A DNA stretch of 64,000 nucleotides, taken from a virus. Under the pieces are notes generated by a model. The model was not told the DNA's origin. It did no database searches and saw nothing but the letters and a program-made list of their open reading frames with translations. Shown here in pieces: positions 9,173 to 64,000 of this stretch (position 1 is its first letter; the number at the start of each line of letters is the position of its first letter). The stretch spans positions 22,541 to 86,540 of the IMG/VR virus record IMGVR_UViG_3300045988_081419; one strand, given 5' to 3'. Made by a program: the position numbers and the translations under genes.

Positions 9173-9546
9173 ATCATCACCCTCTCTCTATCTAAAAGAT
9201 TCAACTCTTCCGCTTTACTTATCTTCTCGTCAAGTATTCTGTAAAACTCTGGGTCGTGCATAACACCTTTCTTTCTGACAAAGCCCGGAAGAGTAAACTG
9301 TATATGATGACACACCTCATGTATGGTGTGATATAAAATGGTCTGATAAGGAAACATCACCTTATTTCCTTTAGTTCTGTAGGGGTAGACTCTCACTTGT
9401 GCTTTCTTACCATTATAAGCATAAAAGTATCTTCCCCAATAAGTCTTACTGTAGGGTCTTATCACTAAATCGAACTCCTCAACTGGGAGTTCTAACAATC
9501 GTAAATCCGAAATTAAACTGTCATATAACTCTTCCTTGCGTAGCAT
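9169..9546 (-). CDS. Putative zinc metallopeptidase (HExxH)
   Basis: YHTIHEVCHHIQF contains HExxH. Start moved to MLRKEEL behind SD AGGAGG. Confidence 0.5.
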   Translation of the reverse strand: MLRKEELYDSLISDLRLLELPVEEFDLVIRPYSKTYWGRYFYAYNGKKAQVRVYPYRTKGNKVMFPYQTILYHTIHEVCHHIQFTLPGFVRKKGVMHDPEFYRILDEKISKAEELNLLDRERVMI

Positions 9547-13816: not shown

Positions 13817-13969
13817 GTGTAGGAAGAAAAGCGTTATTGTATGAAATCGTTTGCTTCATTAAAAGTGAAGTGCCTTAACCAATTAGGCTATCTGTCAAAT
13901 TATTTGGCTGACGGAGTGGGAATCGAACCCACATAAATGATGTAAACAATAACTGCACAATCCTACCAC
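13817..13969 (-). ncRNA. Circularly permuted tRNA-like RNA, unit A (Y RNA/YrlA-like; anticodon-arm loop UUU)
   Basis: Minus strand order: T arm GTGGG-TTCGATT-CCCAC (13932-13916); closed acceptor TCCGTCA-GCCAAATAATT-TGACAGA (13915-13891); TA; D arm GCCT-AATTGGTTA-AGGC (13888-13872); A; anticodon arm CTTCA-CTTTTAA-TGAAG (13870-13854). Flanks pair: GTGGTAGGA/TCCTACAC and GTTATTGT/ACAATAAC. Confidence 0.6.
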
Positions 13970-13986
13970 AATAATTACTACGTTAA

Positions 13987-14137
13987 AATTTAGGAGTAAA
14001 GCCACTTAGCTGTAAATCTCTTAAAGAGTGTTTTCAAGACACTTGCGTATTCCAGTTTCGCCAAATTTCCAATCGGAAATTATAAGATTTGAACCTATAT
14101 ATTTTATGATGTAAGCTAAATGTACACAACCCAAATT
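13987..14137 (-). ncRNA. Circularly permuted tRNA-like RNA, unit B (Y RNA/YrlA-like; anticodon-arm loop UGA)
   Basis: Minus strand order: T arm ATAGG-TTCAAAT-CTTAT (14098-14082); perfect closed acceptor AATTTCC-GATT-GGAAATT (14081-14064); TG; D arm GCG-AAACTGGAATA-CGC (14061-14045); A; anticodon arm AGTGT-CTTGAAA-ACACT (14043-14027). Candidate closing helix AATTTGGG (14137-14130) / CCTAAATT (13994-13987). Confidence 0.55.
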
Positions 14138-14181
14138 ATTATATTCCTTTTAAAGTGGAGTAAAACGATAAAGTCTGTTTG

Positions 14182-14254
14182 TTATCACAACAGGAGTCGA
14201 ACCTGCAATCTTTTTCTTGGAATGAAAACGTCTTAACCATTTGACTATATGATG
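14182..14254 (-). tRNA. tRNA-Gly(UCC): tRNA-Gly (anticodon UCC)
   Basis: Hand-folded cloverleaf: CATCATA-TA-GTC..GAC-G-TTTTC-ATTCCAA-GAAAA-AGATT-GCAGG-TTCGACT-CCTGT-TGTGATA-A. One C1-A72 mismatch. No encoded CCA. Confidence 0.8.
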
Positions 14255-14320
14255 TAAACTTTATCTACACAACCACTATAGTTACTCTATCATAAGGAAG
14301 AAAAACATAAAAGACTTCTT

Positions 14321-14393
14321 TTCATATTGTCGGAATCGAACCAACTACACTTATTTCCCAAAAATAATGCTCTACCTATTGAGCTAAACATGA
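14321..14393 (-). tRNA. tRNA-Pro(UGG): tRNA-Pro (anticodon UGG)
   Basis: TCATGTT-TA-GCTC-AATAGGTA-GAGC-A-TTATT-TTTGGGA-AATAA-GTGTA-GTTGG-TTCGATT-CCGAC-AATATGA-A. Confidence 0.8.
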
Positions 14394-14481
14394 TGTAATC
14401 TTTTATTACACAATCCTTATTTTCTTTAACACTGCTCTCAGCGTGTTTACACTATATCACACTTTCTAAAAGCTGTCAAAA

Positions 14482-14554
14482 CTGCCCTTACTGGATTTGA
14501 ACCAGTGAAATGCAGGAGTCAAAGTCCTGTGCCTTACCACTTGGCGAAAGGGCA
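14482..14554 (-). tRNA. tRNA-Gln(UUG): tRNA-Gln (anticodon UUG)
   Basis: TGCCCTT-TC-GCCA..GGC-A-CAGGA-CTTTGAC-TCCTG-..-ACTGG-TTCAAAT-CCAGT-AAGGGCA-G. The U1-A72 pair is typical of bacterial tRNA-Gln. Confidence 0.85.
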
Positions 14555-14742
14555 ATGAAGCAGACACTTTATCACGCATTTACCTTACCACTAATGACAC
14601 TACTGATGTATCACAATGACCTCAGTATGTTATCACCAATGGAACAGTCGAGTGGAAGGGTAGTCTGCACACCCAATCGGCTTATCCACACATTCAAGTG
14701 TGAGAGTGTATGGTGTGGAGAAAGGATTCAAGCCACACCAAG

Positions 14743-14827
14743 TCGGTGAGGTAGGAATTGAACCTACGTTGTTTCTAATGTCACAGATTTACAGTCTGCT
14801 GTCTTCGCCTACTGGACACACTCACCG
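14743..14827 (-). tRNA. tRNA-Tyr(GUA): tRNA-Tyr (anticodon GUA), class II with long variable region
   Basis: CGGTGAG-TG-TGTC-CAGTAGGCGAA-GACA-GCAGA-CTGTAAA-TCTGT-GACATTAGAAACAAC-GTAGG-TTCAATT-CCTAC-CTCACCG-A. Confidence 0.75.
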
Positions 14828-15054
14828 ATTTTAAGTCACTGTGATAGGAAAGTCCGGCTGTTATACTTCGTTCACACTTCATTGGATAGACTAAAGTGAT
14901 TTCGGCAACTATCTCCTTGTCTGCTACTCATACATATCCGTCTCGTCTATCAAGACCTTTCGCTTTGGCAATCAACAAGTTCGTGACTATCAGCATTTTT
15001 ATTGTAAGTCCTCCACTACTGGAATACCTTACTTAGTCGGCTGACAAGACTAAA

Positions 15055-15127
15055 CTGACTCAGCAGGACTCGAACCTGCGACTTTCTGATTAACAGTCAG
15101 ACGTTCTACCAACTGAACTATGAGTCA
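15055..15127 (-). tRNA. tRNA-Asn(GUU): tRNA-Asn (anticodon GUU)
   Basis: TGACTCA-TA-GTTC-AGTTGGTA-GAAC-G-TCTGA-CTGTTAA-TCAGA-AAGTC-GCAGG-TTCGAGT-CCTGC-TGAGTCA-G. Confidence 0.85.
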
Positions 15128-15222
15128 TCATGCACACTCATGTAGTTTCCGTTTTCCTATTGCTAGCATTGGTCTCTGCACAACTGAGTGTGTGATATAG
15201 GAATTTCCTAGGATTCCTATAA

Positions 15223-15298
15223 CTGAGTAGGAAGGTATCGAACCTTCTTTACAACACTGTTGCAACACAGGTGTTTTCTTCCACAACAAAGCTACTCA
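15223..15298 (-). tRNA. Aberrant tRNA-like gene (non-canonical anticodon arm, identity undetermined)
   Basis: Perfect acceptor TGAGTAG/CTACTCA and T arm GAAGG-TTCGATA-CCTTC. The D stem is weak (TTT/AAA). The anticodon region CCTGTGTTGCAACAGTG folds only as CTGT/ACAG with a 6-nt loop, or as 3 bp with the 8-nt loop UGUUGCAA. Confidence 0.45.
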
Positions 15299-15580
15299 TT
15301 AAAGGTAAGTGTCTGTAGGCTTTCCACCTACTTGCAGGTTTGGTAGTTATCGTCTAACTCACAAGACCTCTTTTACCCAGTGACTTTTCTGGCAACCTTA
15401 CGGATTTGTTTCCACTGACTATTGCTACACAGTCTTAACCACATGGGAATATGGGCTGTATAACTCATTTCACTTACCAATAGTGGTAAAGGGTACTATC
15501 ACCTCGCCCTGTTATTATCGGGTGAATTTAGTAGGTACACGCATTACTGCATATTGTGTATGACCTCTCTTACCACTAAA

Positions 15581-15668
15581 CGGAGTGTATAGGACTTGAA
15601 CCTACGCTACGTCTTAACGTACTAGAAGATTAGCAATCTTCCCTCTTCACCAACTTGAGTAACACTCC
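15581..15668 (-). tRNA. tRNA-Ser(GCU): tRNA-Ser (anticodon GCU), class II
   Basis: GGAGTGT-TA-CTCA..GAG-G-GAAGA-TTGCTAA-TCTTC-[variable arm TACGT-TAAG-ACGTA]-GTAGG-TTCAAGT-CCTAT-ACACTCC-G. Confidence 0.85.
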
Positions 15669-28507: not shown

Positions 28508-29077
28508 TTACCCCTTTCTTCTTTCTTTAAACTCTTGATAAGAGTCCTCAAATCCGGGATTCACTCTCTTAAAATATGTGATAGTACTGCAATCACTCTC
28601 AGCACCTCTACACTTTACACATTGATGTGTTGCTTCTACCTCTACAAACAGTGCATGAGGTTCAAGCATTTCAATTAAAAACTCGCCAATCTCTGTAGTA
28701 AGTTTCTCCTGCAACTGTGGTCTTTTACTAAAGTATTTTACTACTCTAGGAAGTTTTGACAAACCAATGATGTTATCACTAGGAACATAACCAATGGTGA
28801 CTTTGCCGGAGAAAGGTAAAAAGTGGTGTTCACAAGTAGAATTAAAGTCAATGTCTCTTACAATCACCATGTCACTTCCATACTCATTAGGAAAGGTAGT
28901 CATGGTCTCCTTTAACTCTTTCATGTGTGCATCATTTACATTAGCAAATAACTCATTCACCCACATCTTAGAAATTCTAAGTGACGTATTTTTGTTGCTC
29001 TCCGTCTTTTCAATCTCAAGAATTTTCATAATTTCTTCAAGATGTTCCTTAATCTTTTCTACTTTGTTATTTATCAT
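28508..29077 (-). CDS. folE: GTP cyclohydrolase I
   Basis: CEHHFLPFSGKVTIGYVP and HQCVKCRG zinc/active-site motifs. Confidence 0.85.
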   Translation of the reverse strand: MINNKVEKIKEHLEEIMKILEIEKTESNKNTSLRISKMWVNELFANVNDAHMKELKETMTTFPNEYGSDMVIVRDIDFNSTCEHHFLPFSGKVTIGYVPSDNIIGLSKLPRVVKYFSKRPQLQEKLTTEIGEFLIEMLEPHALFVEVEATHQCVKCRGAESDCSTITYFKRVNPGFEDSYQEFKERRKG

Positions 29078-29116
29078 AGTAAGTACCTCCTTTATCTTGT
29101 TACTCCATTATAACAC

Positions 29117-29146
29117 AAAAAAGCCCTCGGTCAATAACCGAGAGCC
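29117..29146 (-). terminator. Rho-independent terminator (usable in both directions)
   Basis: Minus strand GCTCTCGG-TTATTGA-CCGAGGGC followed by UUUUUU. Confidence 0.7.
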
Positions 29147-29171
29147 TTTTCGTCTTTTAGGAAGAGTAGGA

Positions 29172-29324
29172 TTAACGTCCTCTCACACGATTTGCAACAT
29201 TCTGGATACCATTACGAACAGCTCGTCCTGCTCTTTGAAGAATGTTACCACCTCTGTTGCCACCTCTCTGAGAGTTACCGCCACCTCTTGCTCCTCTACT
29301 GGAACCTGCGTATGCTTTCATCAT
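29172..29324 (-). CDS. Gly/Arg-rich 50-aa peptide
   Basis: Below the ORF-track cutoff. SD GGAGGA, then MMKAYAGSSRGARGGGNSQRGGNRGGNILQRAGRAVRNGIQNVANRVRGR, followed directly by a strong terminator. Confidence 0.45.
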   Translation of the reverse strand: MMKAYAGSSRGARGGGNSQRGGNRGGNILQRAGRAVRNGIQNVANRVRGR

Positions 29325-29449
29325 AGCTGTGTCCTCCTTTTTCGTATATTTGGTTAAGGGGTGTCATCATAATAGGGGAATATACTAAACGCCTATCAGA
29401 GTACAGTTGGCTTAACCTGTATATAATATACCAAAACACATATAGGAAG

Positions 29450-30064
29450 TCAATAGGTTTCACCATAAATTTCTTCCAGTGCTTTACAGTCTGGACACCT
29501 TTTACATGGCAGGACTCCTAACACTGGCTCATTACAAGAGAAAAAGTCTTTCGGGGTAATATTGTGTTTTAAAGCAATCTCTTTAAAATCCCACTTATCC
29601 ACGTCAATGAAAGGTGTTTTAATCTCAATATGGCTGTCCTTTAAGACTGTTTCAAGTGCATTAAAGAACTCACCTTTACAATCAATGTATTCGTGTCCGT
29701 CAAAAGATTTGATAACTGCTACATAAATCACTGTACTACCAATACTCTGAGCCAAAGAAGAAGCATAGGACATGAAAATAAGATTGCGGTACTCAAGGTA
29801 CTGTTCATCACCATATTCATTAGAGGTCTTTCTACCATACAGTGTACTCTGAGACCACTTAATAGGTTTGAGTTTCACTACATGGTTTATCATATTCAAC
29901 TTCTTACACACCCTCTTAGCCCGATTTGTTTCCATAAGATGGTTTCTGTTTCCATATTCAAAATGGAGGGAGTGAATTTCTGCGTCTGGGTTATTATCCC
30001 TAACCCAGTGACACAGACACACACTGTCAAAACCTCCGCTGTTCAGTACTACAATCTTTTTCAT
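29450..30064 (-). CDS. queC: 7-cyano-7-deazaguanine synthase
   Basis: PP-loop VVLNSGGFDS and a C-terminal Zn cluster CNEP...CKRCPDC. Confidence 0.85.
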   Translation of the reverse strand: MKKIVVLNSGGFDSVCLCHWVRDNNPDAEIHSLHFEYGNRNHLMETNRAKRVCKKLNMINHVVKLKPIKWSQSTLYGRKTSNEYGDEQYLEYRNLIFMSYASSLAQSIGSTVIYVAVIKSFDGHEYIDCKGEFFNALETVLKDSHIEIKTPFIDVDKWDFKEIALKHNITPKDFFSCNEPVLGVLPCKRCPDCKALEEIYGETY

Positions 30065-30075
30065 GTGTGTACCTC

Positions 30076-30402
30076 CTAGCGTCTAAAAATATCCGGCACA
30101 TCAGATGGGAGAGCATTTCTTGTAGGTCTTGCCTTATTCTCTGTAGAGTGGTATAAAGGTTGACCCACACTTCTCTGCTGTCTCTCTTCTGTCTTAGGTG
30201 TTTTAGCAGGTCTTCTTCCGGCTACTTTGTTAAGTCCATTGAGTCTTGCTGTCTCTTCTTCTAAGATTTCTTTTGCACCAAGTTTTGCTCCGTCATATCT
30301 GTCTTTGTCTGCTTTAATCTCTTCTGCCCTTGCAAGTGTTCTTGCGTCATCACGTCTCTGCCATCTTGCTTCTTCTGGGTCAATAGGTCTTCTATTCATC
30401 AT
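30076..30402 (-). CDS. Hypothetical basic protein
   Basis: 108 aa, R/K/E-rich. Start coupled to the upstream mini-ORF (TAATG). Confidence 0.5.
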   Translation of the reverse strand: MMNRRPIDPEEARWQRRDDARTLARAEEIKADKDRYDGAKLGAKEILEEETARLNGLNKVAGRRPAKTPKTEERQQRSVGQPLYHSTENKARPTRNALPSDVPDIFRR

Positions 30403-30470
30403 TACTTTTTACCTCCTTTTTTGCTACCTTTCTTAGTACTCTTACTACCTTTTTTAGTTCCACAAGCCAT
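30402..30470 (-). CDS. Possible 22-aa Lys-rich mini-ORF
   Basis: MACGTKKGSKSTKKGSKKGGKK. TAATG overlaps at both ends and SD GGAGGTG upstream. It could equally be only an SD-bearing spacer. Confidence 0.3.
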   Translation of the reverse strand: MACGTKKGSKSTKKGSKKGGKK

Positions 30471-30664
30471 TATGTGTCACCTCCTACATCTAAAAGCTGA
30501 CCTGTCTCAATCACACCACCTTGTTTCTGGCAGTTAGGACATTTAAGGTCTTTTAAAAGGGTTTCCACTGGTCTAACAGAAATCCATCTGTGAACACAGT
30601 GAACACAGAGGACTTCTGATACCATGTGAGGTTTGTTTGCGTCAATATCAACAACCTTTGACAT
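30470..30664 (-). CDS. Zinc-ribbon protein
   Basis: CVHCVH...CPNC, 64 aa. Confidence 0.5.
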   Translation of the reverse strand: MSKVVDIDANKPHMVSEVLCVHCVHRWISVRPVETLLKDLKCPNCQKQGGVIETGQLLDVGGDT

Positions 30665-31315
30665 TTACTGTACCTCCAAAATCTTATGCAACTGAATCTG
30701 GACTCTGACGTTTAAATGGTCTTCAAGAATCCACTCAACAAGTTCTTTTCCAATGTAGGCTTTTCCATTCGGGTCAAACATAGGACTGACAAGAATACTT
30801 GCAGAAGTAGGGTACTTTTTCATAACCCCTTTCATAAACTCATAATCTTCTCTGTCCTTGATAACATACTTAACCTCGTCATTGTTTTGCAATTTTAAAA
30901 GGTTCTCATAAATGTTTTTGTGCTTTACTCCACTGGACGGACCTTTAATGTCCATCACATATTTGTAACTTCTTCTGTAACTAGGTTCTTCCAAAGGAAC
31001 ACAACCACTTGTCTCAATAGACACATTAAATCCGAGGGATTGTAACTCATATACCAGTGGAAGTGCTTCTTCATGGATAAGTGGCTCACCACCTGTCAGA
31101 CAAATGTTCTTACACCACTTATAGTCTTTAAGGACTGCTTGAACTAAGTTACCTACAGAAATTCTTTTTCTGTCCTCTTTCTTTTGGGGTTGGTCGCAAT
31201 AGGAACAACCTACTGGACAGCCAAACAAACGAATAAAGACACAAGGGAGACCAGTATCACTTGATTCTCCCTGTATGCTACAAAAGATTTCATCATAGTA
31301 TAACATAGTCTCCAC
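30665..31315 (-). CDS. queE: 7-carboxy-7-deazaguanine synthase (radical SAM)
   Basis: FIRLFGCPVGCSYCD radical-SAM cluster motif, with size and context matching QueE. Confidence 0.8.
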   Translation of the reverse strand: METMLYYDEIFCSIQGESSDTGLPCVFIRLFGCPVGCSYCDQPQKKEDRKRISVGNLVQAVLKDYKWCKNICLTGGEPLIHEEALPLVYELQSLGFNVSIETSGCVPLEEPSYRRSYKYVMDIKGPSSGVKHKNIYENLLKLQNNDEVKYVIKDREDYEFMKGVMKKYPTSASILVSPMFDPNGKAYIGKELVEWILEDHLNVRVQIQLHKILEVQ

Positions 31316-31319
31316 CTCC

Positions 31320-31724
31320 TTATGTCGCAGGTTGCAGAATATTTCTTAAACTCTCATAGCTTGGAATGTATTCTGCATAACTGTCTTCTGTCTCCCACAA
31401 TTTCACGCTTACAAGATAAACATTATCCGGGAGGTTTTGCATAATTGTTTTTCCAATGTCAACCACCATAATTTCTGCGGTAGGGTTAGGGTAATGGTTA
31501 TTTAAGTCCTCATGGTCTAATTTATCAACCACATAGTCTTTGACAATCTTCTTGAGGTCTTTAAAATCCATAATCATTCCTTGCTTCGGACCATCTTTAA
31601 TGATGGAACCTCCTACTGTAACATCAAGTTTGTAGGAGTGTCCATGAAGATTGTGGCAAGCACCCTTATAATGAGGTAAGTGGTGACACGCTTCAAATCC
31701 AAAGTGTTTTGTAATTGTAAGCAT
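31320..31724 (-). CDS. queD: 6-carboxy-5,6,7,8-tetrahydropterin synthase
   Basis: CHHLPHYKGACHNLHGHSY zinc/catalytic motif, 134 aa. Confidence 0.85.
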   Translation of the reverse strand: MLTITKHFGFEACHHLPHYKGACHNLHGHSYKLDVTVGGSIIKDGPKQGMIMDFKDLKKIVKDYVVDKLDHEDLNNHYPNPTAEIMVVDIGKTIMQNLPDNVYLVSVKLWETEDSYAEYIPSYESLRNILQPAT

Positions 31725-31726
31725 AA

Positions 31727-31984
31727 CTACACCTCCTCTAAATCAATACCCTCAACTTCTGCTCTAACTTCAAGGGTTCTAAGGTAATTACCCATATAGC
31801 CTTTCTGCTCTTTCAGCAATTCAAGACTACATTTAGGGGTAAAGTTAAGTGTTCCTGCTTCGTATCTGATAGTCATTTTATGAAGTTTGTCGTACCTCAT
31901 TTTAGTCTGCCAGTACTCAGCTTTAAATCTGTCTACATAGTTATCACTATACATAAGTTTAGTAATTCTGTTTAAATCTACCAT
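31727..31984 (-). CDS. Hypothetical protein
   Basis: 85-aa ORF. Confidence 0.5.
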   Translation of the reverse strand: MVDLNRITKLMYSDNYVDRFKAEYWQTKMRYDKLHKMTIRYEAGTLNFTPKCSLELLKEQKGYMGNYLRTLEVRAEVEGIDLEEV

Positions 31985-31996
31985 AATAAATCCTCC

Positions 31997-32272
31997 TTAA
32001 TCTACTACGATTCTTGCAATCATAACTGTTTTGTCTCCATCTACATCAGCAGTGTCATACCCCGGTCTGATATAGAGAATCTTACCTTTCTGTGCAAAGA
32101 TACTACTAGCAGTAGCAACAGCCTTAAACATCTGGTTTACACTAGACGCTCCAATGGCTCTTAACTCAATGTTATGATAACCTGCTTCGTAGGTCTTTAC
32201 AATACTTCCGGCAGTCTGTCTTGTTGGGGAAGAGCCGGAAACTTTAAGGACTTTTACTTCTTCTCTAGCCAC
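31997..32272 (-). CDS. spoVS: SpoVS-like protein
   Basis: LKVSGSSPTRQTAGSIV...ELRAIGASSVNQMFKAVATA...MIARIVV aligns by eye with Bacillus SpoVS. Confidence 0.65.
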   Translation of the reverse strand: MAREEVKVLKVSGSSPTRQTAGSIVKTYEAGYHNIELRAIGASSVNQMFKAVATASSIFAQKGKILYIRPGYDTADVDGDKTVMIARIVVD

Positions 32273-32289
32273 GATTATTACCTCCTTTT

Positions 32290-32835
32290 CTACAACTTTA
32301 CTGCATACTGGTTATCAGAAGCAAGGGTAACACCTAACACTTCATCAAACCTGTTTGGTCTATCTGGAATGTATCTACCATACTTGATAACTACATTTTC
32401 CAACTTCTTTAACACCTCTAAAGTGTCTTTGCTTATTTCTTCTGGATAGTACCCAGTGTAGATAACAAAGTCATTTTTAACTCCTCTGTCTCTAAAGTAG
32501 TGAATAAGCTGTACTACTTCATCAGCCTGTAAAAATGGTTCAAGACCACCTATTACAATAGCTTCACTTAAAAGTGAGTTCTGGAACATTTTGAAAATGT
32601 TCTCATAGTCAACAATAATATCCTCTTGAGAATTAACCCCAGAATTTTGACAAGTACTGCAAGGAAGATTTACTTCCCTACAGCACTTAAAATCACAAGT
32701 AGAAACACCTATGAACATGGAGCATTTCTTGTAATCTTGAAACACCTCTGATTTAATATCTTTCACTTTGATACTGGCATAGAAGACATTATCACTTAAC
32801 TTACCCACATTAGAATAAGTCATCATTGAGGTCAT
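32290..32835 (-). CDS. nrdG: Anaerobic ribonucleotide reductase activating protein (radical SAM)
   Basis: Cys cluster CDFKCC..CSTC, located immediately downstream of nrdD. Confidence 0.65.
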   Translation of the reverse strand: MTSMMTYSNVGKLSDNVFYASIKVKDIKSEVFQDYKKCSMFIGVSTCDFKCCREVNLPCSTCQNSGVNSQEDIIVDYENIFKMFQNSLLSEAIVIGGLEPFLQADEVVQLIHYFRDRGVKNDFVIYTGYYPEEISKDTLEVLKKLENVVIKYGRYIPDRPNRFDEVLGVTLASDNQYAVKL

Positions 32836-35013: not shown

Positions 35014-35391
35014 CTATACCTCTTTTCTTCTTGGTTTAATTACTTTAGAAACAAGGTCTTCCACAAGGACATAGCCAAAATTTCTACTGTCATAACTATC
35101 TGGTGCATTATCCCCTAAAAAGAAGATAGACTGCACTTTTCCGTCCTTATCTCTAAATACTTCACTGACTCTTTTTATCAAGAGTCTTTCTTTATCATAG
35201 GGTTGTTTAAACACCATTATGTCTCCCGGCTTGATGTTATCTACTTTATAAATTCTTCTGGAAAGTACGACTTCACCATTAAGATATGTAGGTAACATAC
35301 TGCAACCACACACTTCAACAAGCGGAAAGAAATAGTGGAGAATTACAATAACCACTACAATAAAGAAAAGCCACTTCAAAATTGTTATCAT
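35014..35391 (-). CDS. Signal peptidase I-like (S26) protein
   Basis: N-terminal TM helix, CSMLPT (Ser box), LIKRV (Lys box) and GDNAPDSYDSRNFG. Confidence 0.65.
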   Translation of the reverse strand: MITILKWLFFIVVVIVILHYFFPLVEVCGCSMLPTYLNGEVVLSRRIYKVDNIKPGDIMVFKQPYDKERLLIKRVSEVFRDKDGKVQSIFFLGDNAPDSYDSRNFGYVLVEDLVSKVIKPRRKEV

Positions 35392-35837
35392 TTCTTAAAC
35401 ACCCTCTTTCCAACTACTTTGTCTTTTGGAACGATATTTAAGAAGTCTTCTAACCTTAAAGTGACGTAATCATTTGATGTATTATGTTCATGGAAAATAA
35501 CAATAGGGAGTCTACCCTCTGGACAGTCACTTTCAGCTTGTTTCAGCCACTTAGGAAGAGACCATTTCTGTTGATTCTTACATTCAATGTGGAGTAACAA
35601 CATCTGCTTTGTGTCCACTATCGTAATGTCTCCTCTGTAGTCATCTGCCTTATCAGACTTCTTTGCAAAACCACCAGACTGAGGTGTGCGTTTTAACTCA
35701 ACACCATACTTGTCTTGGAATTTCTTTGCAATTACACGCTCATACTGACCACCTTTTCTTTTGGCATTTCTACCTTGTCTTGAAAGTTGCTCCTGCTTTG
35801 TCATTTGACCTTGTTCTACTTTTTTCTTTAATTTCAT
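35388..35837 (-). CDS. PD-(D/E)XK nuclease (Holliday-junction-resolvase-like)
   Basis: G..YER...GD(ITIVD)...HIECK pattern. Paralogous to the 42977-43456 gene. Confidence 0.5.
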   Translation of the reverse strand: MKLKKKVEQGQMTKQEQLSRQGRNAKRKGGQYERVIAKKFQDKYGVELKRTPQSGGFAKKSDKADDYRGDITIVDTKQMLLLHIECKNQQKWSLPKWLKQAESDCPEGRLPIVIFHEHNTSNDYVTLRLEDFLNIVPKDKVVGKRVFKK

Positions 35838-60861: not shown

Positions 60862-61221
60862 TTATTCTTTTGGTGTAGTGTCATCTGGTGTAAAATCTGG
60901 GAGTTTGCTCTTCCAGAAGCGTTTCACAATATCAATAAAGTAATCCCAACCTTTTGCGGTAATAAGGGCAACGATAAAGCTGATAAAAATAATTGCCACT
61001 AAATAATACCACACAAAGGCAATTCCCTTGTACGAAATGTACATAAAGAATAAAGTCACACAAACCACTAAAGACAGGAATAACACCTGCAAAGTAGTCG
61101 GGATTTTCTTGAGAAAACCTAAATCCTTTGTGAACTCGGTGATGACGGAAATCAGAATACAGATACCACATAACACTGCAAGCAGGACGGAACTGTATTC
61201 AACTAACATTCCTACATTCAT
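60862..61221 (-). CDS. Holin
   Basis: Three predicted TM helices, directly upstream of the endolysin. Start at MNVGML behind SD AAGGAGG. Confidence 0.65.
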   Translation of the reverse strand: MNVGMLVEYSSVLLAVLCGICILISVITEFTKDLGFLKKIPTTLQVLFLSLVVCVTLFFMYISYKGIAFVWYYLVAIIFISFIVALITAKGWDYFIDIVKRFWKSKLPDFTPDDTTPKE

Positions 61222-61259
61222 CTTTGTTACCTCCTTTTTAGATTTTAAAATAAAGTCGG

Positions 61260-61874
61260 TCAACATTCAGAGTCTTCATGGTCTCTTTCTCTGCTGACTT
61301 TCCTTACTTCCTTAACTTGTTTCCACTTATACATTTCTTTCTGTACTGTGGAATGAACAAAGGAGTTATCTCCTCCGTGTTTCTCATACTGGTCTATAAG
61401 GTCTTTCAGTGATTCAAACTGCATAGCGGTACAGACCTGCTCTGGTGTACACTCCCTGTAGATTCGTTCTATCTTTTCTTTGATTTCAGCCCTTTTTGTC
61501 TCAGAGTTTTTCTTTTGGATATTGAGAGTAATTTCTTTAAGGTCAGCAATCTGTTCTGATTGACCCCTCATAACCTCATACATTTCATTTCTGATTCTTT
61601 GAGAATCTTCCCTGTCGTGTTTTCTGTTTCTTTCTCTCTCTTCTCTGTTATCCTTAACCTCTTTCCGCAATTCAATGACTGATTCCTTTAATTCATAAAC
61701 AAGGGCATGAAAATCTTCTTCTTGATTTTTAGTTTTTCTCCATTTATTTAGATGCTTTGATAATTTCTTTTTTTGAGTAAGATATAACATTAAAAGTGCC
61801 AAAATTAAAAGAGAAGCGTAAACAAGGTCTACAGCCTTGACATTTGCCATAAGTTCTAAGATAGACTTATTCAA
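61260..61874 (-). CDS. Membrane-anchored coiled-coil protein (lysis-module associated)
   Basis: N-terminal TM helix followed by K/E-rich coiled coil. TTG start behind AAGGAGGAG. Confidence 0.5.
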   Translation of the reverse strand: MNKSILELMANVKAVDLVYASLLILALLMLYLTQKKKLSKHLNKWRKTKNQEEDFHALVYELKESVIELRKEVKDNREERERNRKHDREDSQRIRNEMYEVMRGQSEQIADLKEITLNIQKKNSETKRAEIKEKIERIYRECTPEQVCTAMQFESLKDLIDQYEKHGGDNSFVHSTVQKEMYKWKQVKEVRKVSRERDHEDSEC

Positions 61875-61977: not shown

Positions 61978-62133
61978 TTAGGACTGCTTTCTCGCTCTGC
62001 TTTTTACTAAATCAGCATGACCTTTGTTAGTCAAGTCCTCTTTTACTTCTTCTTTAAGCTGTGCAGGTACTCCTGCATAAGTCTTATCACCTGCAATAAT
62101 TTTGTTAGCCCAAAGTTGTGAAATAAGTCTCAT
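61978..62133 (-). CDS. XkdX-like small protein (51 aa), paralog 1
   Basis: Below the ORF-track cutoff. MRLISQLWANKIIAGDKTYAGVPAQLKEEVKEDLTNKGHADLVKSRARKQS. Similar to the next gene (LWAQRIMNGKKTYDQVPRLLKEQVKE). Confidence 0.5.
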   Translation of the reverse strand: MRLISQLWANKIIAGDKTYAGVPAQLKEEVKEDLTNKGHADLVKSRARKQS

Positions 62134-62159
62134 ATTGTTACCTCCTTATGCAGTTTTTG

Positions 62160-62309
62160 TTAGACAGTAGGTGTCTTCTCTTCTGTGATAAGAAACTCTA
62201 CACCACTCTCAATGAGAATTTCCTTGACCTGCTCTTTAAGAAGTCTAGGAACTTGGTCGTAAGTCTTCTTACCATTCATAATTCTTTGTGCCCAAAGCAT
62301 AGCAATCAT
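62160..62309 (-). CDS. XkdX-like small protein, paralog 2
   Basis: Start at MIAMLWAQ behind SD AAGGAGGGAG. Confidence 0.5.
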   Translation of the reverse strand: MIAMLWAQRIMNGKKTYDQVPRLLKEQVKEILIESGVEFLITEEKTPTV

Positions 62310-62361
62310 GGTGTCTCCCTCCTTTCCATAGATTAGCCTAAACAAAAGCATATTTAAAGCA

Positions 62362-62655
62362 CTAAGCATAGACCACAGAGCTCATTTCCAGAATCATATC
62401 TTCTAATGCTGTTGCTTTGTCATTAAGGGAGACTTGTCCGGCAGATAACGCTTGAAGAAATTCATCTTTTTCATATTCTTTAACATCATAGGAGAATAAA
62501 GGTCCTAACTCTTGACCCTCCTCTAATTGTTCTTTTTCTTGCTGTCTTTCACTCTCTGGAACTTCCTTGATGTTAGTGTTTAAATACACATGAGATTCAT
62601 CAAATTCAATTTCAAGAGGTCTTACAGTTGATTGAACACTCTTAATTTCTTTCAT
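62362..62655 (-). CDS. Hypothetical protein
   Basis: Start at MKEIKSV behind SD GGAGGA. Acidic. Confidence 0.5.
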   Translation of the reverse strand: MKEIKSVQSTVRPLEIEFDESHVYLNTNIKEVPESERQQEKEQLEEGQELGPLFSYDVKEYEKDEFLQALSAGQVSLNDKATALEDMILEMSSVVYA

Positions 62656-63805
62656 TGTTCTTTCCTCCATTCTTTAAATGATTTTGGTAGTACTCCTGTA
62701 TATGAGGTTCTAATGGTTTAAAGTATTTCTCACATAATCTGTGTCCATTACAATAACCCACCCAACCTTTATAAGAATTATAACAACAGTAATCAGAATA
62801 GGACATTTCTGTTCCACTTTTTACCTTCATTCTTATTTTACTCAGCTTAGATTTTAACCTCTTAGCTGTAGAGTTTCTTAGGAGTATAAAATCCGGGAAA
62901 ATCCTATAACCTACAAAGTCAACACCTCTGTCTGCTATAGGGAACACTTGATAATTACCTTTTATTGTTAAGTGCCTGTCAGTAATCATGTACTCAATAA
63001 TTTCCAATTTTAATTGTTGCAGGTACTCTTTAGAGTGATGCAGGATAACTATGTCATCCATATATCTGTAGTAATACTTGACTCTCTTAACCTCTTTTAT
63101 CCAGTGGTCGAAAGGAGATAAATAAAAATTACCACTGAACTGAGAAAGATAGTTCCCAATAGGAATACCTGTGTCTGGTGCTTCTTTGATATTAAGTTCA
63201 AGATACCATAACAAGTTTTCATCTTTAAATAATCTATGATAGTCCCTTATAAGAACTTCCCTATCTATTGATGGATAAAATTTCTTAACATCCATCTTTA
63301 AACAGTACGTTGTACCCTCTGGGTCTGCCTTTATATCTGCACTAATACGTTTAAAAGCTAAATGAATACCTCTATCTGGAATTGCCGAATAAGTATCATA
63401 TATTAGCTGTCTTAACAGTATAGGAGATATTACCTGCAACACCGCCCACTGAATGACTCTTTCTGGAAAATATCGTGACTTATAAATTTCCCTCTCTTTA
63501 CCACGCTCTTTTCGTGTAAACTTCTCATAGGGTAGTGGTGTGTAAGTCTTAAAGACCAACATATCTTGTATAGCCTTTAGGTGTTTCTTTGGGTCTTTAT
63601 TAAATTCACGAACTTCTTTGTACCATTTCTTTCCCTTACTTGCATTTTTATGAGCAAGTTCTAGGTTATCCATAGAACAAATTCTTTCCCATATTGTTTG
63701 CGTCCTGTCTTCTTTCCCAGTATTAGGGTCAATAGGGTACAGGTGACGCTTCATTTTCCATGTACTCACAAGCCTAATCTTCAAACGCTTTATAAAGTCG
63801 TACAC
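62642..63805 (-). CDS. Diversity-generating retroelement (DGR)-type reverse transcriptase
   Basis: RT motifs in order: KGKKWYKEV, KEREIYKSRYFPERVIQWAV, the DGR-diagnostic IPIGNYLSQFSGNFYL, and the catalytic RYMDDIVIL. About 370 aa with no maturase or endonuclease domain. The true start may be MKRHLYP (63754). Confidence 0.75.
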   Translation of the reverse strand: MYDFIKRLKIRLVSTWKMKRHLYPIDPNTGKEDRTQTIWERICSMDNLELAHKNASKGKKWYKEVREFNKDPKKHLKAIQDMLVFKTYTPLPYEKFTRKERGKEREIYKSRYFPERVIQWAVLQVISPILLRQLIYDTYSAIPDRGIHLAFKRISADIKADPEGTTYCLKMDVKKFYPSIDREVLIRDYHRLFKDENLLWYLELNIKEAPDTGIPIGNYLSQFSGNFYLSPFDHWIKEVKRVKYYYRYMDDIVILHHSKEYLQQLKLEIIEYMITDRHLTIKGNYQVFPIADRGVDFVGYRIFPDFILLRNSTAKRLKSKLSKIRMKVKSGTEMSYSDYCCYNSYKGWVGYCNGHRLCEKYFKPLEPHIQEYYQNHLKNGGKNNERN

Positions 63806-64000
63806 CCTTATTCAGCTACCAACAAGACTGTGTAGGCATTTCAGAGTACCAGTTGTTTTACCATCATTTTATGTGTCATTTAATACTAATGACCTAACCT
63901 ATGTTAGAGAGGTAAGGTAAAATAGTCTACACGGATTTTTTAATTCCAAAATGTTATATAAACACTTCCAGAACTGAGTACAGTGCCGTGAAGTGGTCGC
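63806..64000 (-). other. Non-coding region upstream of the RT: probable DGR spacer and 3' end of the template repeat (truncated by window)
   Basis: There is no ORF. AT-rich for about 150 nt, then GC-richer at 63960-64000 (minus strand GCGACCACTTCACGGCACTGTACTCAG). In DGRs the TR normally lies just upstream of the RT gene. Confidence 0.35.

What the first reader, a model, noticed from the sequence alone, without database searches (positions are those of the whole stretch)
62642..64000. DGR reverse transcriptase at the junction of the tail-fibre and lysis modules, cut by the window edge
The RT carries the motif that distinguishes DGR RTs from group II intron and retron RTs (IPIGNYLSQFSGNFYL, where those classes have the QG..SP type). 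It also has YMDD and lacks maturase and endonuclease domains. It lies just upstream of the XkdX-like, holin and endolysin genes, which is where phage DGRs that diversify receptor-binding proteins usually sit. The 195 nt upstream is non-coding and becomes GC-richer at the edge, consistent with the RT-proximal spacer plus the 3' end of the template repeat. The avd gene, the rest of the TR and the variable repeat/target gene should lie just beyond coordinate 64000. I found no VR-like copy of the 63960-64000 sequence inside the window.
Basis: partly seen in the sequence, partly recalled or inferred. Interest (0 to 1): 0.65.

Follow-up and report, generated by a model that had tools for sequence, protein, structure and literature searches.

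The report
Active phage DGR without Avd
This is the complete reverse-transcriptase gene and structured RNA spacer of a diversity-generating retroelement that keeps rewriting the tip of a phage tail protein; it is real and active, but it is an ordinary member of a well-known class, of the already described subtype that lacks the helper protein Avd.

Summary
The ORF is real and complete: window 62642-63754 (-), 370 aa. It has only an RVT_1 domain and carries IPIGNYLSQ and YMDD. Its best solved relative is the Bordetella phage DGR enzyme bRT (123 bits, against 53 for a group II RT).

Metagenome contigs that are 100% identical to the window over 11.4 kb continue past base 64000. They show a 629-aa tail-protein gene ending in a 104-nt VR, then a 230-nt gap, a 104-nt TR, a 239-nt spacer and the RT. 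The TR is identical in five samples. The VRs differ almost only at TR adenines. Two contigs identical over 14.5 kb differ at 14 bases, all inside the VR. So the DGR is genuine and active.

- The RT is not cut. Only the last 8 nt of the TR (63993-64000) lie in the window.
- There is no avd gene. This is the known TR-RT architecture of Wu et al. 2018.

The spacer (63755-63992) belongs to a covariation-supported RNA fold conserved across this Avd-less RT lineage. Its layout parallels the BPP-1 cis-priming RNA.

The small acidic ORF after the RT goes with the tail gene, not the DGR.

Verdict: new member of a known kind, modest interest.

The parts
62642..63754 (-). DGR reverse transcriptase gene, complete (370 aa from the ATG; a GTG at 63805 would give 387 aa)
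   Evidence: ORF. Pfam finds RVT_1 only. The exact 370-aa product is called on 12 contigs. The best PDB relative is bRT, 8ub7, at 123.5 bits against 53.4 for the GsI-IIC group II RT. The bRT residues R74, I181, G182, S186 and Q187 and the catalytic D138/D215/D216 are conserved in that alignment.
63755..63992 (-). Spacer between TR and RT: the 3' domain of the DGR RNA (non-coding, structured)
   Evidence: No credible ORF. It is the best hit in the whole window of a covariance model built from the spacers of relatives: 63746-63974, 16.2 bits, E 0.45. The same model hits directly upstream of the RT in 60 loci and nowhere else in 569 kb. Pair counts show 92% of cells paired, against 23-45% in slid controls.
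63993..64000 (-). Last 8 nt of the template repeat (GCGACCAC, the IMH*-like end); the other 96 nt lie beyond the window
   Evidence: Window base 64000 corresponds to L001 9754 / L003 9755. The TR is L003 9659-9762. The VR has GCGGCCGC here in all samples.
63975..63982 (-). P1, 5' strand (UGUACUCA), 10 nt after the TR end; pairs with 63761-63768
   Evidence: Read from the sequence as 8 perfect base pairs. The CM alignment places P1 differently, so this window assignment is manual. The positionally equivalent helix covaries across the family (helix 1; for example AUGCAC/GUGCAU, UUGUGCA/UGCACAA, GCUUAU/AUAAGC).
63761..63768 (-). P1, 3' strand (UGAGUACA), immediately before the RT ribosome-binding region
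63915..63923 (-). Spacer strand (AUUUUACCU) of the long-range duplex with a sequence upstream of the TR. The partner AGGUAAAAU lies outside the window, at L003 9548-9556. Equivalent of the BPP-1 'cPRT Stop' duplex.
   Evidence: In 59 of 60 loci the 9-12 nt just 5' of P2 are complementary to a stretch 0-100 nt upstream of the TR. The sequences differ completely between loci (own median -15.6 kcal/mol against -8.2 for cross pairs). The window pair was read from the sequence and given coordinates; clade members L015, L007 and L013 appear.
63859..63914 (-). P2 stem (UACC 63911-63914 with GGUA 59-62 of 638xx), enclosing a clade-specific insertion of about 48 nt with two small hairpins
   Evidence: Helix 2 is 100% paired with compensatory changes (UGCC/GGCA, UGGC/GCCA, UACC/GGUA, CACC/GGUG). 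Window alignment; coordinates.
63854..63858 (-). Adenosine-rich run (AAACA) directly after P2
   Evidence: Invariant or nearly invariant A columns after P2 in the alignment. Same order as the BPP-1 stem-loop plus A80/A81 (bioRxiv 10.1101/2023.10.23.563531).
63772..63828 (-). P4 (GUCUUGU 63822-63828 with AUUAGGC 63772-63778), enclosing the invariant internal loop UGGUAG (63816-63821) / UUUGAAG (63779-63785) and the variable hairpin P3 (63786-63815)
   Evidence: Helices 3 and 4: every pair shows compensatory changes. GUA and GAA are invariant columns. Window alignment; coordinates.

Best explanation
The ORF is the reverse transcriptase of an active diversity-generating retroelement in a roughly 86-kb tailed phage. 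The host is probably Gram-positive, judged from the endolysin domains.

Layout (shown). In genomes identical to the window, the cassette is: a 629-aa tail-protein gene whose last ~39 codons are the VR, a 230-nt gap, a 104-nt TR, a 239-nt spacer, then the RT. There is no avd gene. This is the 'Architecture A1' DGR of Wu et al. 2018.

Mechanism (inferred, by analogy with the Bordetella phage BPP-1 DGR).
- A transcript spanning the TR and spacer folds so that a sequence upstream of the TR pairs with the spacer. This duplex sits next to a short stem-loop followed by adenosines.
- The 3' end of the TR pairs with a short spacer motif.
- A P3/P4 stem with an invariant GUA/GAA internal loop lies before the RT start.
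- The RT binds this RNA and primes cDNA in cis from a spacer nucleotide.
- It copies the TR faithfully except at adenines.
- The mutagenised cDNA replaces the VR, re-randomising 20 codons, 10 of them AAT.
- The result is a changed receptor-binding tip of the tail protein.

What is shown: RT class, TR/VR anatomy, adenine-specific and ongoing VR change, absence of avd near the cassette, and the conserved RNA pairings.

What is inferred: cis-priming, its exact site, that the RT needs no protein partner, and the receptor-binding role.
For: RT class:
- Pfam finds RVT_1 only.
- bRT is the best PDB match, 123.5 bits against 53.4 for a group II RT, and the [I]Gxx xSQ motif and R74/I181 equivalents are conserved.
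- Phage relatives by tblastn are RTs of crAss-like, Bacteroides, Faecalibacterium and Bordetella phages.

Cassette:
- The exact RT is on 12 contigs of about 85 kb.
- The window is 100% identical to L003 and L004 over 11,359 nt.
- The TR/VR pair is 104 nt long.
- Mismatches at TR-A are 21/21, 23/23, 15/15, 18/20, 16/18 and 18/18 in L001-L005 and L012.
- The TR is identical in five samples.
- L003 and L004 differ at 14 of 14,521 positions, all inside the VR, 12 of them at TR-A.
- 30 of 31 TR adenines sit at codon positions 1-2. There are 10 AAT codons, no stop codon is reachable, and about 6e17 protein variants are possible.
- The three 3'-most adenine differences are fixed as G in every VR, giving an IMH/IMH*-like end.

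Target: it matches PHROG 5302 'tail protein' and follows baseplate and pectate-lyase-like tail genes.

No Avd:
- No Avd-sized ORF between VR and RT.
- No Avd-type family among called genes within +/-10 kb, nor in the window's 80-230-aa minus-strand ORFs.
- About 70 related loci have the same VR-TR-RT spacing.
- Avd-less DGRs are documented (PMC5758913).

RNA: covariation for P1-P4. The CM hits only upstream of RTs. The upstream-TR:spacer duplex is present in 59 of 60 loci. TR 3' end:spacer complementarity is found in 13/19 own pairs against 29/258 cross pairs.
Against: - The TR, VR and target are not in the window. They are inferred from contigs identical to it over the shared 11.4 kb.
- Activity is inferred from differences between assemblies, not from read heterogeneity within one sample.
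- The C-type-lectin fold of the target could not be tested: the model had pLDDT 37, and there was no profile match to the PDB or to Mtd.
- The window's own spacer matches the family RNA model only weakly (E 0.45), and its MFE is no better than shuffles (z -0.51).
- For the window's clade the TR:spacer priming duplex is only 3-6 bp and its register is ambiguous.
- About 11 kb of the phage genome and the plus-strand ORFs were not scanned for Avd. Avd proteins are poorly conserved, so a divergent or distant Avd is not strictly excluded.
Confidence: 0.93

Rival explanations
1. The RT belongs to another bacterial RT class (group II intron, retron, or a defence RT of the Abi/DRT/UG type) and only happens to sit in a phage tail/lysis region.
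For: Generic RT profiles do match: TIGR04416 group II RT/maturase 85 bits, Drt3a 57 bits, retron St85 44.5 bits; PADLOC RT_UG17 92 bits and others.
Against: - All these scores are far below the curated cut-offs of 300, 200 and 235 bits.
- bRT scores more than twice any other solved RT.
- No group II intron, retron or other Rfam family is found around the gene.
- A TR/VR pair with adenine-specific, ongoing variation sits next to the gene. Only DGRs produce that.
Confidence: 0.02
2. It is a DGR that does depend on a protein partner. That partner would be either a divergent Avd encoded elsewhere in the phage or host, or the small acidic ORF (62362-62670) whose start overlaps the RT stop codon.
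For: - bRT is inactive without Avd (PMC6182149).
- A small acidic ORF (81-125 aa, pI 4.1-4.7) follows the RT, with overlapping stop and start, in many relatives. Detectable homology reaches down to 42% RT identity.
- Wu et al. describe an acidic accessory gene, CH1, in other Avd-less DGRs.
- About 11 kb of the genome was not scanned.
Against: - Of 78 viral loci carrying the small ORF, 22 have no RT at all. In those it lies 10-20 nt after a homologue of the target tail protein. It therefore travels with the tail gene, and TR-RT looks like an insertion between the two.
- Loci with only an RT remnant still keep the ORF.
- Its model is beta+alpha, not a helical bundle, and matches nothing in the PDB.
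- CH1 proteins are 160-169 aa.
- No Avd-type Pfam hit in the window's small ORFs or the +/-10 kb genes.
- Wu et al. found no distant avd for Avd-less DGRs.
Confidence: 0.12
3. It is a relic: a once-active DGR whose VR differences between samples are old, fixed polymorphisms rather than current activity.
For: Decayed versions exist in relatives: loci with only the last ~70 RT residues left (L095, L096, L101, L102, L159, L164, L166). No read-level data were examined.
Against: - The RT ORF is intact and identical in 12 contigs.
- The TR is invariant.
- Two genomes with zero differences in 14.4 kb outside the VR differ at 14 VR positions. That requires a local mutation rate orders of magnitude above background.
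- Every one of six genomes has a different VR.
Confidence: 0.03

Closest known systems
Bordetella phage BPP-1 DGR (mtd-VR, avd, TR, brt)
   Same: - Best solved relative of the RT, with conserved catalytic and adenine-mutagenesis residues.
- The target is a tail protein with the VR at its 3' end, and the cassette sits next to the lysis genes.
- AAY-rich TR with adenine-specific VR differences and an IMH/IMH*-like 3' end.
- The RNA elements come in the same order: TR 3' end:spacer duplex, then upstream-of-TR:spacer duplex, then a short stem-loop, then adenosines, then a stem-loop before the RT.
   Different: - No avd gene, and hence no Avd-binding stem-loop directly after the TR.
- There is an extra helix, P1, joining the TR 3' flank to the region just before the RT start.
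- The family RNA model does not hit the BPP-1 spacer.
- The TR is 104 nt rather than 134 nt.
- No detectable sequence similarity between the target and Mtd.
Avd-less DGRs, 'Architecture A1' (target/VR-TR-RT) of Wu et al. 2018, NAR 46:11 (PMC5758913)
   Same: Same gene order and the same lack of any accessory gene. That paper already reports that 26% of DGRs lack avd, that no distant avd was found for them, and that an Avd-independent mechanism is implied.
   Different: I did not place this RT in their tree, so membership of a particular lineage (for example their Avd-less Lineage 3) is not established. The passages of that paper searched here do not mention the spacer RNA structure seen here; the full text was not read.
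Viral DGR clades of gut phages (Roux et al. 2021, PMC8144416), including crAss-like phage DGRs
   Same: Phage-encoded, tail-protein target, and found in metagenome assemblies. The RTs of crAss-like phages are 40-44% identical. Related IMG/VR loci, among them L067 (40% RT identity), carry the same spacer RNA motif.
   Different: Different phage. There is no nucleotide match to any of 50,697 deposited phage genomes. Clade assignment in that catalogue was not tested.
Psychrobacillus phage Perkons (MT325768) reverse transcriptase, ORF175
   Same: Closest RT in an isolated phage, at 51% identity. It has a TR/VR-type spacing upstream, and its spacer matches the RNA model strongly (85 bits).
   Different: A 137-kb phage. 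Its target is only 354 aa, and a 449-aa gene follows the RT instead of the small acidic ORF.

Membership tests
Diversity-generating retroelement (DGR) | RT of the DGR clade: motif 4 [LIV]GxxxSQ instead of QGxxxSP, YxDD, no endonuclease domain | tested here: met
   IPIGNYLSQ and YMDD are present. RVT_1 is the only domain. The best solved relative is bRT, 123.5 bits against 53.4 for a group II RT, with I181/G182/S186/Q187/R74 equivalents conserved. No explicit phylogeny was built.
Diversity-generating retroelement (DGR) | A template repeat and a variable repeat near the RT whose differences fall at TR adenines | tested here: met
   A 104-nt pair lies 348 nt apart, and 15-23 of 15-23 mismatches are at TR-A. 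This was seen in contigs 100% identical to the window over 11.4 kb. Only 8 nt of the TR are inside the window.
Diversity-generating retroelement (DGR) | TR invariant while VR varies between genomes (activity) | tested here: met
   The TR is identical in 5 samples, and there are 6 distinct VRs. L003 and L004 differ at 14 positions, all in the VR, out of 14,521. Within-sample read heterogeneity was not testable.
Diversity-generating retroelement (DGR) | VR at the 3' end of a protein-coding target; TR adenines at codon positions 1-2 (AAY codons), so no stop codons arise | tested here: met
   The VR ends 15 nt before the last base of the stop codon of the 629-aa ORF. 30 of 31 adenines are at positions 1-2, there are 10 AAT codons, and no stop is reachable.
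Diversity-generating retroelement (DGR) | IMH in the VR versus IMH* in the TR: fixed differences at the 3' end that give directionality | tested here: met
   The TR has AGCGACCAC where the VR has GGCGGCCGC in all six VRs, whereas upstream adenines vary. The function of this element was not tested.
Diversity-generating retroelement (DGR) | Accessory gene avd (present in about 74% of DGRs, so not universal) | tested here: not met
   The VR-TR gap is 230 nt with no suitable ORF. No Avd-type family was found in the +/-10 kb genes or in the window's small ORFs. The layout is shared by about 70 related loci. Its absence is a known variant.
Diversity-generating retroelement (DGR) | VR displayed on a C-type-lectin fold | tested here: inconclusive
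   The structure model failed (pLDDT 37). No PDB profile hit and no hhalign match to Mtd. Only the pattern LLGxxWxxGxxxG...N...GGR resembles known VRs, and that is read by eye.
Diversity-generating retroelement (DGR) | DGR RNA elements for cis-primed reverse transcription: upstream-of-TR:spacer duplex plus a stem-loop plus adenosines, and a TR 3' end:spacer duplex | tested here: met
   The duplex is present in 59 of 60 loci with full sequence turnover. The P2 stem-loop covaries and is followed by an A-run. TR:spacer complementarity is 13/19 own against 29/258 cross. Priming itself is not testable here.
Group II intron RT/maturase | Full-length match to the RT/maturase family and flanking intron RNA domains | tested here: not met
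   TIGR04416 scores 85 bits against a cut-off of 300. No group II intron Rfam hit in 62000-64000, in the whole window, or in L003 9200-10100.
Retron | Retron-type RT with an adjacent msr/msd RNA | tested here: not met
   NF038233 scores 44.5 bits against a cut-off of 235. No retron RNA family in Rfam scans. No solved retron RT passes E 1e-3; the two chains named 'retron-type' score 39-46 bits.
Defence RTs (Abi / DRT / UG groups) | Match above threshold to a DRT/UG family and a defence-island context | tested here: not met
   Drt3a scores 57 bits against 200, and Drt2 39 against 390. PADLOC matches are generic RT-domain matches of at most 92 bits for any UG family. The context is tail and lysis genes.

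The most novel reading that the evidence does not exclude
In this large Avd-less lineage of phage DGRs, the conserved spacer RNA fold may let the RT assemble and cis-prime on its own, doing by RNA what Avd does in BPP-1. The fold comprises P1, which closes the domain onto the TR 3' flank, the stop-duplex/P2/A-run module, and the P3/P4 stem with an invariant GUA/GAA internal loop. If so, this would be a minimal two-component DGR (one protein, one RNA), with a defined RNA motif that could be used to find such elements and to engineer them.
Probability: 0.3. Interest if true: 0.55.

Novelty: new member of a known kind. Interest (0 to 1): 0.33.

Why it matters
As a DGR it adds little. Tens of thousands are catalogued, most phage ones target tail proteins (Roux et al. 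2021), and the Avd-less layout was described in 2018.

Its value is as an unusually clean natural example. Genomes that are otherwise identical differ only in the VR, which shows the element is firing now.

The by-product is more useful. The spacer inside the window belongs to an RNA structure that is conserved, with abundant compensatory changes, across Avd-less phage DGRs from 35% to 100% RT identity. Its elements come in the same order as the cis-priming RNA solved for BPP-1. The one survey of these RNA elements consulted here covered Avd-containing DGRs only.

If the RT of this lineage works without a protein partner, it would be a simpler chassis for targeted-mutagenesis tools than bRT-Avd.

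Tried and rejected
1. Small acidic ORF after the RT as a new accessory factor. Its start overlaps the RT stop and it follows RTs in many relatives. However, 22 of 78 loci have it without any RT, directly after a homologue of the target tail protein. Its model is not a helical bundle and matches nothing in the PDB. Rejected: it partners the tail gene.
2. Avd elsewhere. A Pfam scan of all 80-230-aa minus-strand ORFs of the window, concatenated with GS linkers, found none (the 'Serglycin' hits are linker artefacts).
3. Remote VRs in the window: none.
4. C-type-lectin fold of the target. The AlphaFold model was unusable. The profile against the PDB and hhalign against Mtd were negative. Left open.
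5. UGGUAG as the priming site, by its likeness to BPP-1 UGGUCA56. In the window's clade it could pair with TR AGCGACCA, but this does not hold in other lineages. Covariation instead places GUA/GAA in an internal loop between P3 and P4. Rejected.
6. Thermodynamic evidence for the window's spacer alone: z -0.51, uninformative.
7. Rfam: no known family in the spacer or around the RT.
8. Megablast of the last 5 kb against deposited phages: no match. tblastn of the small ORF against phages: no match.
9. The 387-aa GTG-start product is not on record.
10. The search for related loci with the mixed alignment A1 failed for lack of a conserved stretch. It was redone with A2.
Full report
**1. The observation**

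The minus strand carries an ORF at 62642..63805 from a GTG (387 aa), or at 62642..63754 from the first ATG (370 aa). The 370-aa product is the one called on public contigs; the 387-aa form is on none.

Pfam finds a single RVT_1 domain, and the protein ends about 70 residues after it. The sequence from the start codon to base 64000 has no credible ORF. The last 40 bases are about 52% G+C by my count.

No TR/VR-like repeat exists in the window. The window edge cuts the retroelement, not the RT.

**2. What kind of RT it is**

Curated bacterial RT families match only at the level of the shared RT domain:

| Family | Score (bits) | Cut-off (bits) |
|---|---|---|
| Group II RT/maturase | 85 | 300 |
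| Drt3a | 57 | 200 |
| Retron St85 | 44.5 | 235 |

PADLOC gives generic RT hits only. Against all solved structures, the best relative by far is the Bordetella phage DGR enzyme bRT (8ub7, 123.5 bits, aligned over residues 18-336). The GsI-IIC group II RT follows at 53.4 bits.

In that alignment the catalytic aspartates are conserved. So are R74 and I181/G182/S186/Q187 of bRT, residues that the BPP-1 structural study describes as contacting the template and the incoming nucleotide.

No group II intron or retron RNA family is found around the gene. Relatives in deposited phages are RTs of Psychrobacillus phage Perkons (51%), crAss-like phages (40-44%), and Bacteroides, Faecalibacterium and Bordetella phages.

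**3. The rest of the element**

The exact 370-aa protein is encoded on 12 metagenome contigs, most of about 85 kb. Two of them (L003, L004) are 100% identical to the window over the whole shared 11,359 nt. Window base 64000 corresponds to L003 9755.

Upstream of the RT these contigs carry, in order:
- baseplate genes and a pectate-lyase-like tail protein;
- a 194-aa ORF;
- a 629-aa ORF matching PHROG 5302 'tail protein';
- 230 nt without a gene;
- a 104-nt repeat;
- 239 nt of spacer;
- the RT.

The 104-nt repeat (TR, L003 9659-9762) has a second copy at the 3' end of the 629-aa gene (VR, 9311-9414). The VR ends 15 nt before the last base of the stop codon.

Only the last 8 nt of the TR (GCGACCAC, window 63993-64000) fall inside the window.

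**4. It is a DGR, and it is active**

- The TR is identical in five independent samples. Each VR differs from it at 15-23 positions, and essentially all of these are TR adenines: 21/21, 23/23, 15/15, 18/20, 16/18 and 18/18.
- L003 and L004 differ at 14 of 14,521 aligned bases. All 14 are inside the VR, 12 of them at TR adenines.
- Six genomes carry six different VRs.
- Thirty of the 31 TR adenines sit at codon positions 1 or 2. Ten codons are AAT. No substitution at adenine can create a stop codon. Twenty codons can vary, giving about 6e17 possible proteins.
- The three 3'-most adenine differences are G in every VR (TR AGCGACCAC, VR GGCGGCCGC), whereas adenines just upstream vary. This is the behaviour expected of an IMH/IMH* boundary.
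- With the TR in hand, no further VR was found anywhere in the window.

**5. No Avd**

- The VR-TR gap is 230 nt and holds no ORF of Avd size.
- None of the genes called within 10 kb on either side has an Avd-type Pfam family.
- A Pfam scan of all 80-230-aa minus-strand ORFs of the window found none.
- The same layout (VR, 60-250 nt, TR, 100-250 nt, RT) recurs in about 70 related loci with RTs from 35% to 100% identical. These include prophages of Enterococcus timonensis and a Clostridia MAG.

This is not new. Wu et al. 2018 found that 26% of DGRs lack avd, defined the TR-RT 'Architecture A', found no distant avd for such elements, and inferred an Avd-independent mechanism (PMC5758913).

**6. 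The small acidic ORF after the RT**

Window 62362-62670 encodes a 97-102-aa protein of pI 4.3 whose start overlaps the RT stop codon. Similar ORFs follow the RT in many relatives. I tested whether it is an accessory factor.

Of 78 viral loci that encode a homologue and have enough upstream sequence, 56 have an RT or RT remnant just upstream and 22 have none. In all 22, the ORF sits 10-20 nt after a homologue of the target tail protein.

It therefore goes with the tail gene, and TR-RT looks like an insertion between the two. Its predicted structure is mixed beta/alpha (pLDDT 73) and matches nothing in the PDB. I reject the accessory-factor idea, while noting that only an experiment can exclude it.

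**7. The spacer RNA: how it probably works**

The 238 nt between the TR end and the RT start lie inside the window and are part of the finding. Spacers of relatives share a conserved core. A four-helix structure was tested on it.

| Test set | Cells paired | Slid controls | Pairs with compensatory change |
|---|---|---|---|
| 32 sequences | 92.9% | 19-42% | 14 of 19 |
| 60 model-aligned sequences | 92.0% | 23-45% | 18 of 19 |

The elements, from 5' to 3', are:
- **P1, 5' strand.** It lies at or just after the TR end and pairs with the bases immediately before the RT ribosome-binding site.
- **Long-range duplex strand.** A 9-12-nt strand pairs with a sequence 0-100 nt upstream of the TR. This holds in 59 of 60 loci even though the sequences are entirely different between loci (own median -15.6 kcal/mol against -8.2 for cross pairs).
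- **P2.** A short stem-loop, UGCC-loop-GGCA, with variants UGGC/GCCA, UACC/GGUA and CACC/GGUG.
- **A run of adenosines.**
- **P4 and P3.** These enclose an internal loop with invariant GUA on one side and GAA on the other. From memory this resembles a loop-E/sarcin-ricin motif; I did not test that.

A covariance model of this structure gives 60 hits in 569 kb. Every hit is directly upstream of an RT start, and there is none in BPP-1. In the 64-kb window its best hit is 63746-63974 on the minus strand (16.2 bits, E 0.45). The score is weak because this clade has an insertion of about 48 nt in the P2 loop and a long P3, but the position is exactly right.

The order 'upstream-of-TR:spacer duplex, short stem-loop, adenosines' is the 'cPRT Stop' module solved for the BPP-1 bRT-Avd-RNA complex. 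There it sits a few nucleotides 3' of the priming adenosine Sp A56, which pairs with the TR 3' end (bioRxiv 10.1101/2023.10.23.563531 and PMC6182149).

In the relatives, a spacer motif (usually GUGA, followed by A's) lies 3-10 nt 5' of the duplex strand. It is complementary to the TR's 3' NCAN tetramer, with matching changes: UCAC/GUGA, CCAC/GUGG, UCGC/GCGA, UCAG/CUGA. This holds in 13 of 19 own pairs against 29 of 258 cross pairs.

By analogy, I infer that this is the template:primer duplex, and that cDNA synthesis starts in the G+C-rich TR end. That fits the fixed, untransferred adenines there.

For the window's own clade this duplex is short and ambiguous. It is either CAC with GUG at ~63928-63932, or CACUUC (63990-63995) with GAAGUG (63963-63968).

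The BPP-1 Avd-binding stem-loop has no conserved counterpart in the family structure, as expected for an element without Avd. That survey of RNA elements covered only DGRs with Avd. The extension to an Avd-less lineage seems to be new, but it is a refinement and not a new kind of system.

**8. What was not established**

- The C-type-lectin fold of the target: the model failed (pLDDT 37), and profile searches were negative.
- The host. A Gram-positive host is inferred from the glucosaminidase/CHAP/CW_7/LysM endolysin.
- Within-sample VR heterogeneity.
- The absence of Avd in the ~11 kb of genome not seen.
- The priming site.

**9. Verdict**

This is a genuine, complete and currently active DGR RT belonging to the known Avd-less TR-RT architecture. 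It diversifies a tail protein of an uncultivated ~86-kb phage that has no nucleotide match among deposited phage genomes.

It is a new member of a known kind. DGRs of gut and other phages that target tail proteins are catalogued in the tens of thousands (PMC8144416; figure of ~31,000). Interest is modest. The conserved spacer RNA architecture is the one point that may repay follow-up.

Noticed in passing
window 62362-62670 (-): A small acidic ORF (97-102 aa, pI 4.3) whose start overlaps the RT stop codon. Homologues follow the target-type tail protein directly in 22 of 78 viral loci that have no RT, so it is a partner of the tail gene and not a DGR component. Function unknown (PHROG 18126). 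Its model is beta+alpha and has no PDB match.
   Followed up: yes
L095, L096, L101, L102, L159, L164, L166 (just upstream of position ~3500 in each): Only the last ~55-75 residues of an RT are detectable between the tail-protein homologue and the small acidic ORF. These look like decayed DGRs, which suggests repeated loss of TR-RT at this junction.
   Followed up: partly
window 28511-31742 (-): A run of genes for 7-deazaguanine (queuosine precursor) synthesis: PTPS/QueD-like (31323-31742), a radical-SAM QueE-like gene (30668-31345), QueC (29453-30082) and GTP cyclohydrolase I (28511-29107). This suggests the phage modifies its DNA.
   Followed up: no
window 13837-15668 (-): A cluster of seven tRNA genes (Rfam tRNA; six score 49-76 bits and one sits at the 29-bit threshold).
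   Followed up: no
L004 2769 and 2807 (= L003 9361 and 9399); same positions in L005: Two VR changes are T-to-G at TR thymines, each immediately 5' of a TR adenine that is also changed. These are rare non-adenine substitutions next to mutagenised sites.
   Followed up: no
window 63863-63910 (-): This phage clade carries an insertion of about 48 nt with two small hairpins (CUAAC-AUAG-GUUAG and GUCAU-...-AUGAC) in what is a 4-5-nt loop of P2 in other lineages. That is why the family RNA model scores the window only weakly.
   Followed up: partly
L148 ~2185-2215, L169, L147, L129 (between the TR end and the conserved spacer core): A G+C-rich hairpin followed by a U-run (ACCCCGUCAGAAAUGGCGGGGUGUUUUU) sits between the TR and the RT-proximal RNA core in some relatives. 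It looks like an intrinsic terminator or attenuator inside the DGR RNA.
   Followed up: no
window 61978-62369 (-) and 60862-61874 (-): Two tandem small CD1375-like ORFs (26.8 and 18.7 bits, both under Pfam's cut-off of 27), a 204-aa protein whose sequence looks like an N-terminal membrane segment followed by a charged, possibly coiled-coil region (by eye), and a 134-aa multi-membrane-segment protein (PHROG 18218, unknown function) precede the endolysin. The labels 'XkdX-like' and 'holin' are plausible but no profile confirmed them.
   Followed up: partly
window 32000-32311, 31730-31996, 35017-35394 (-): Small ORFs matching SpoVS, a crAss001_48-related protein and a signal peptidase S26 domain. 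These are unusual cargo for a phage.
   Followed up: no
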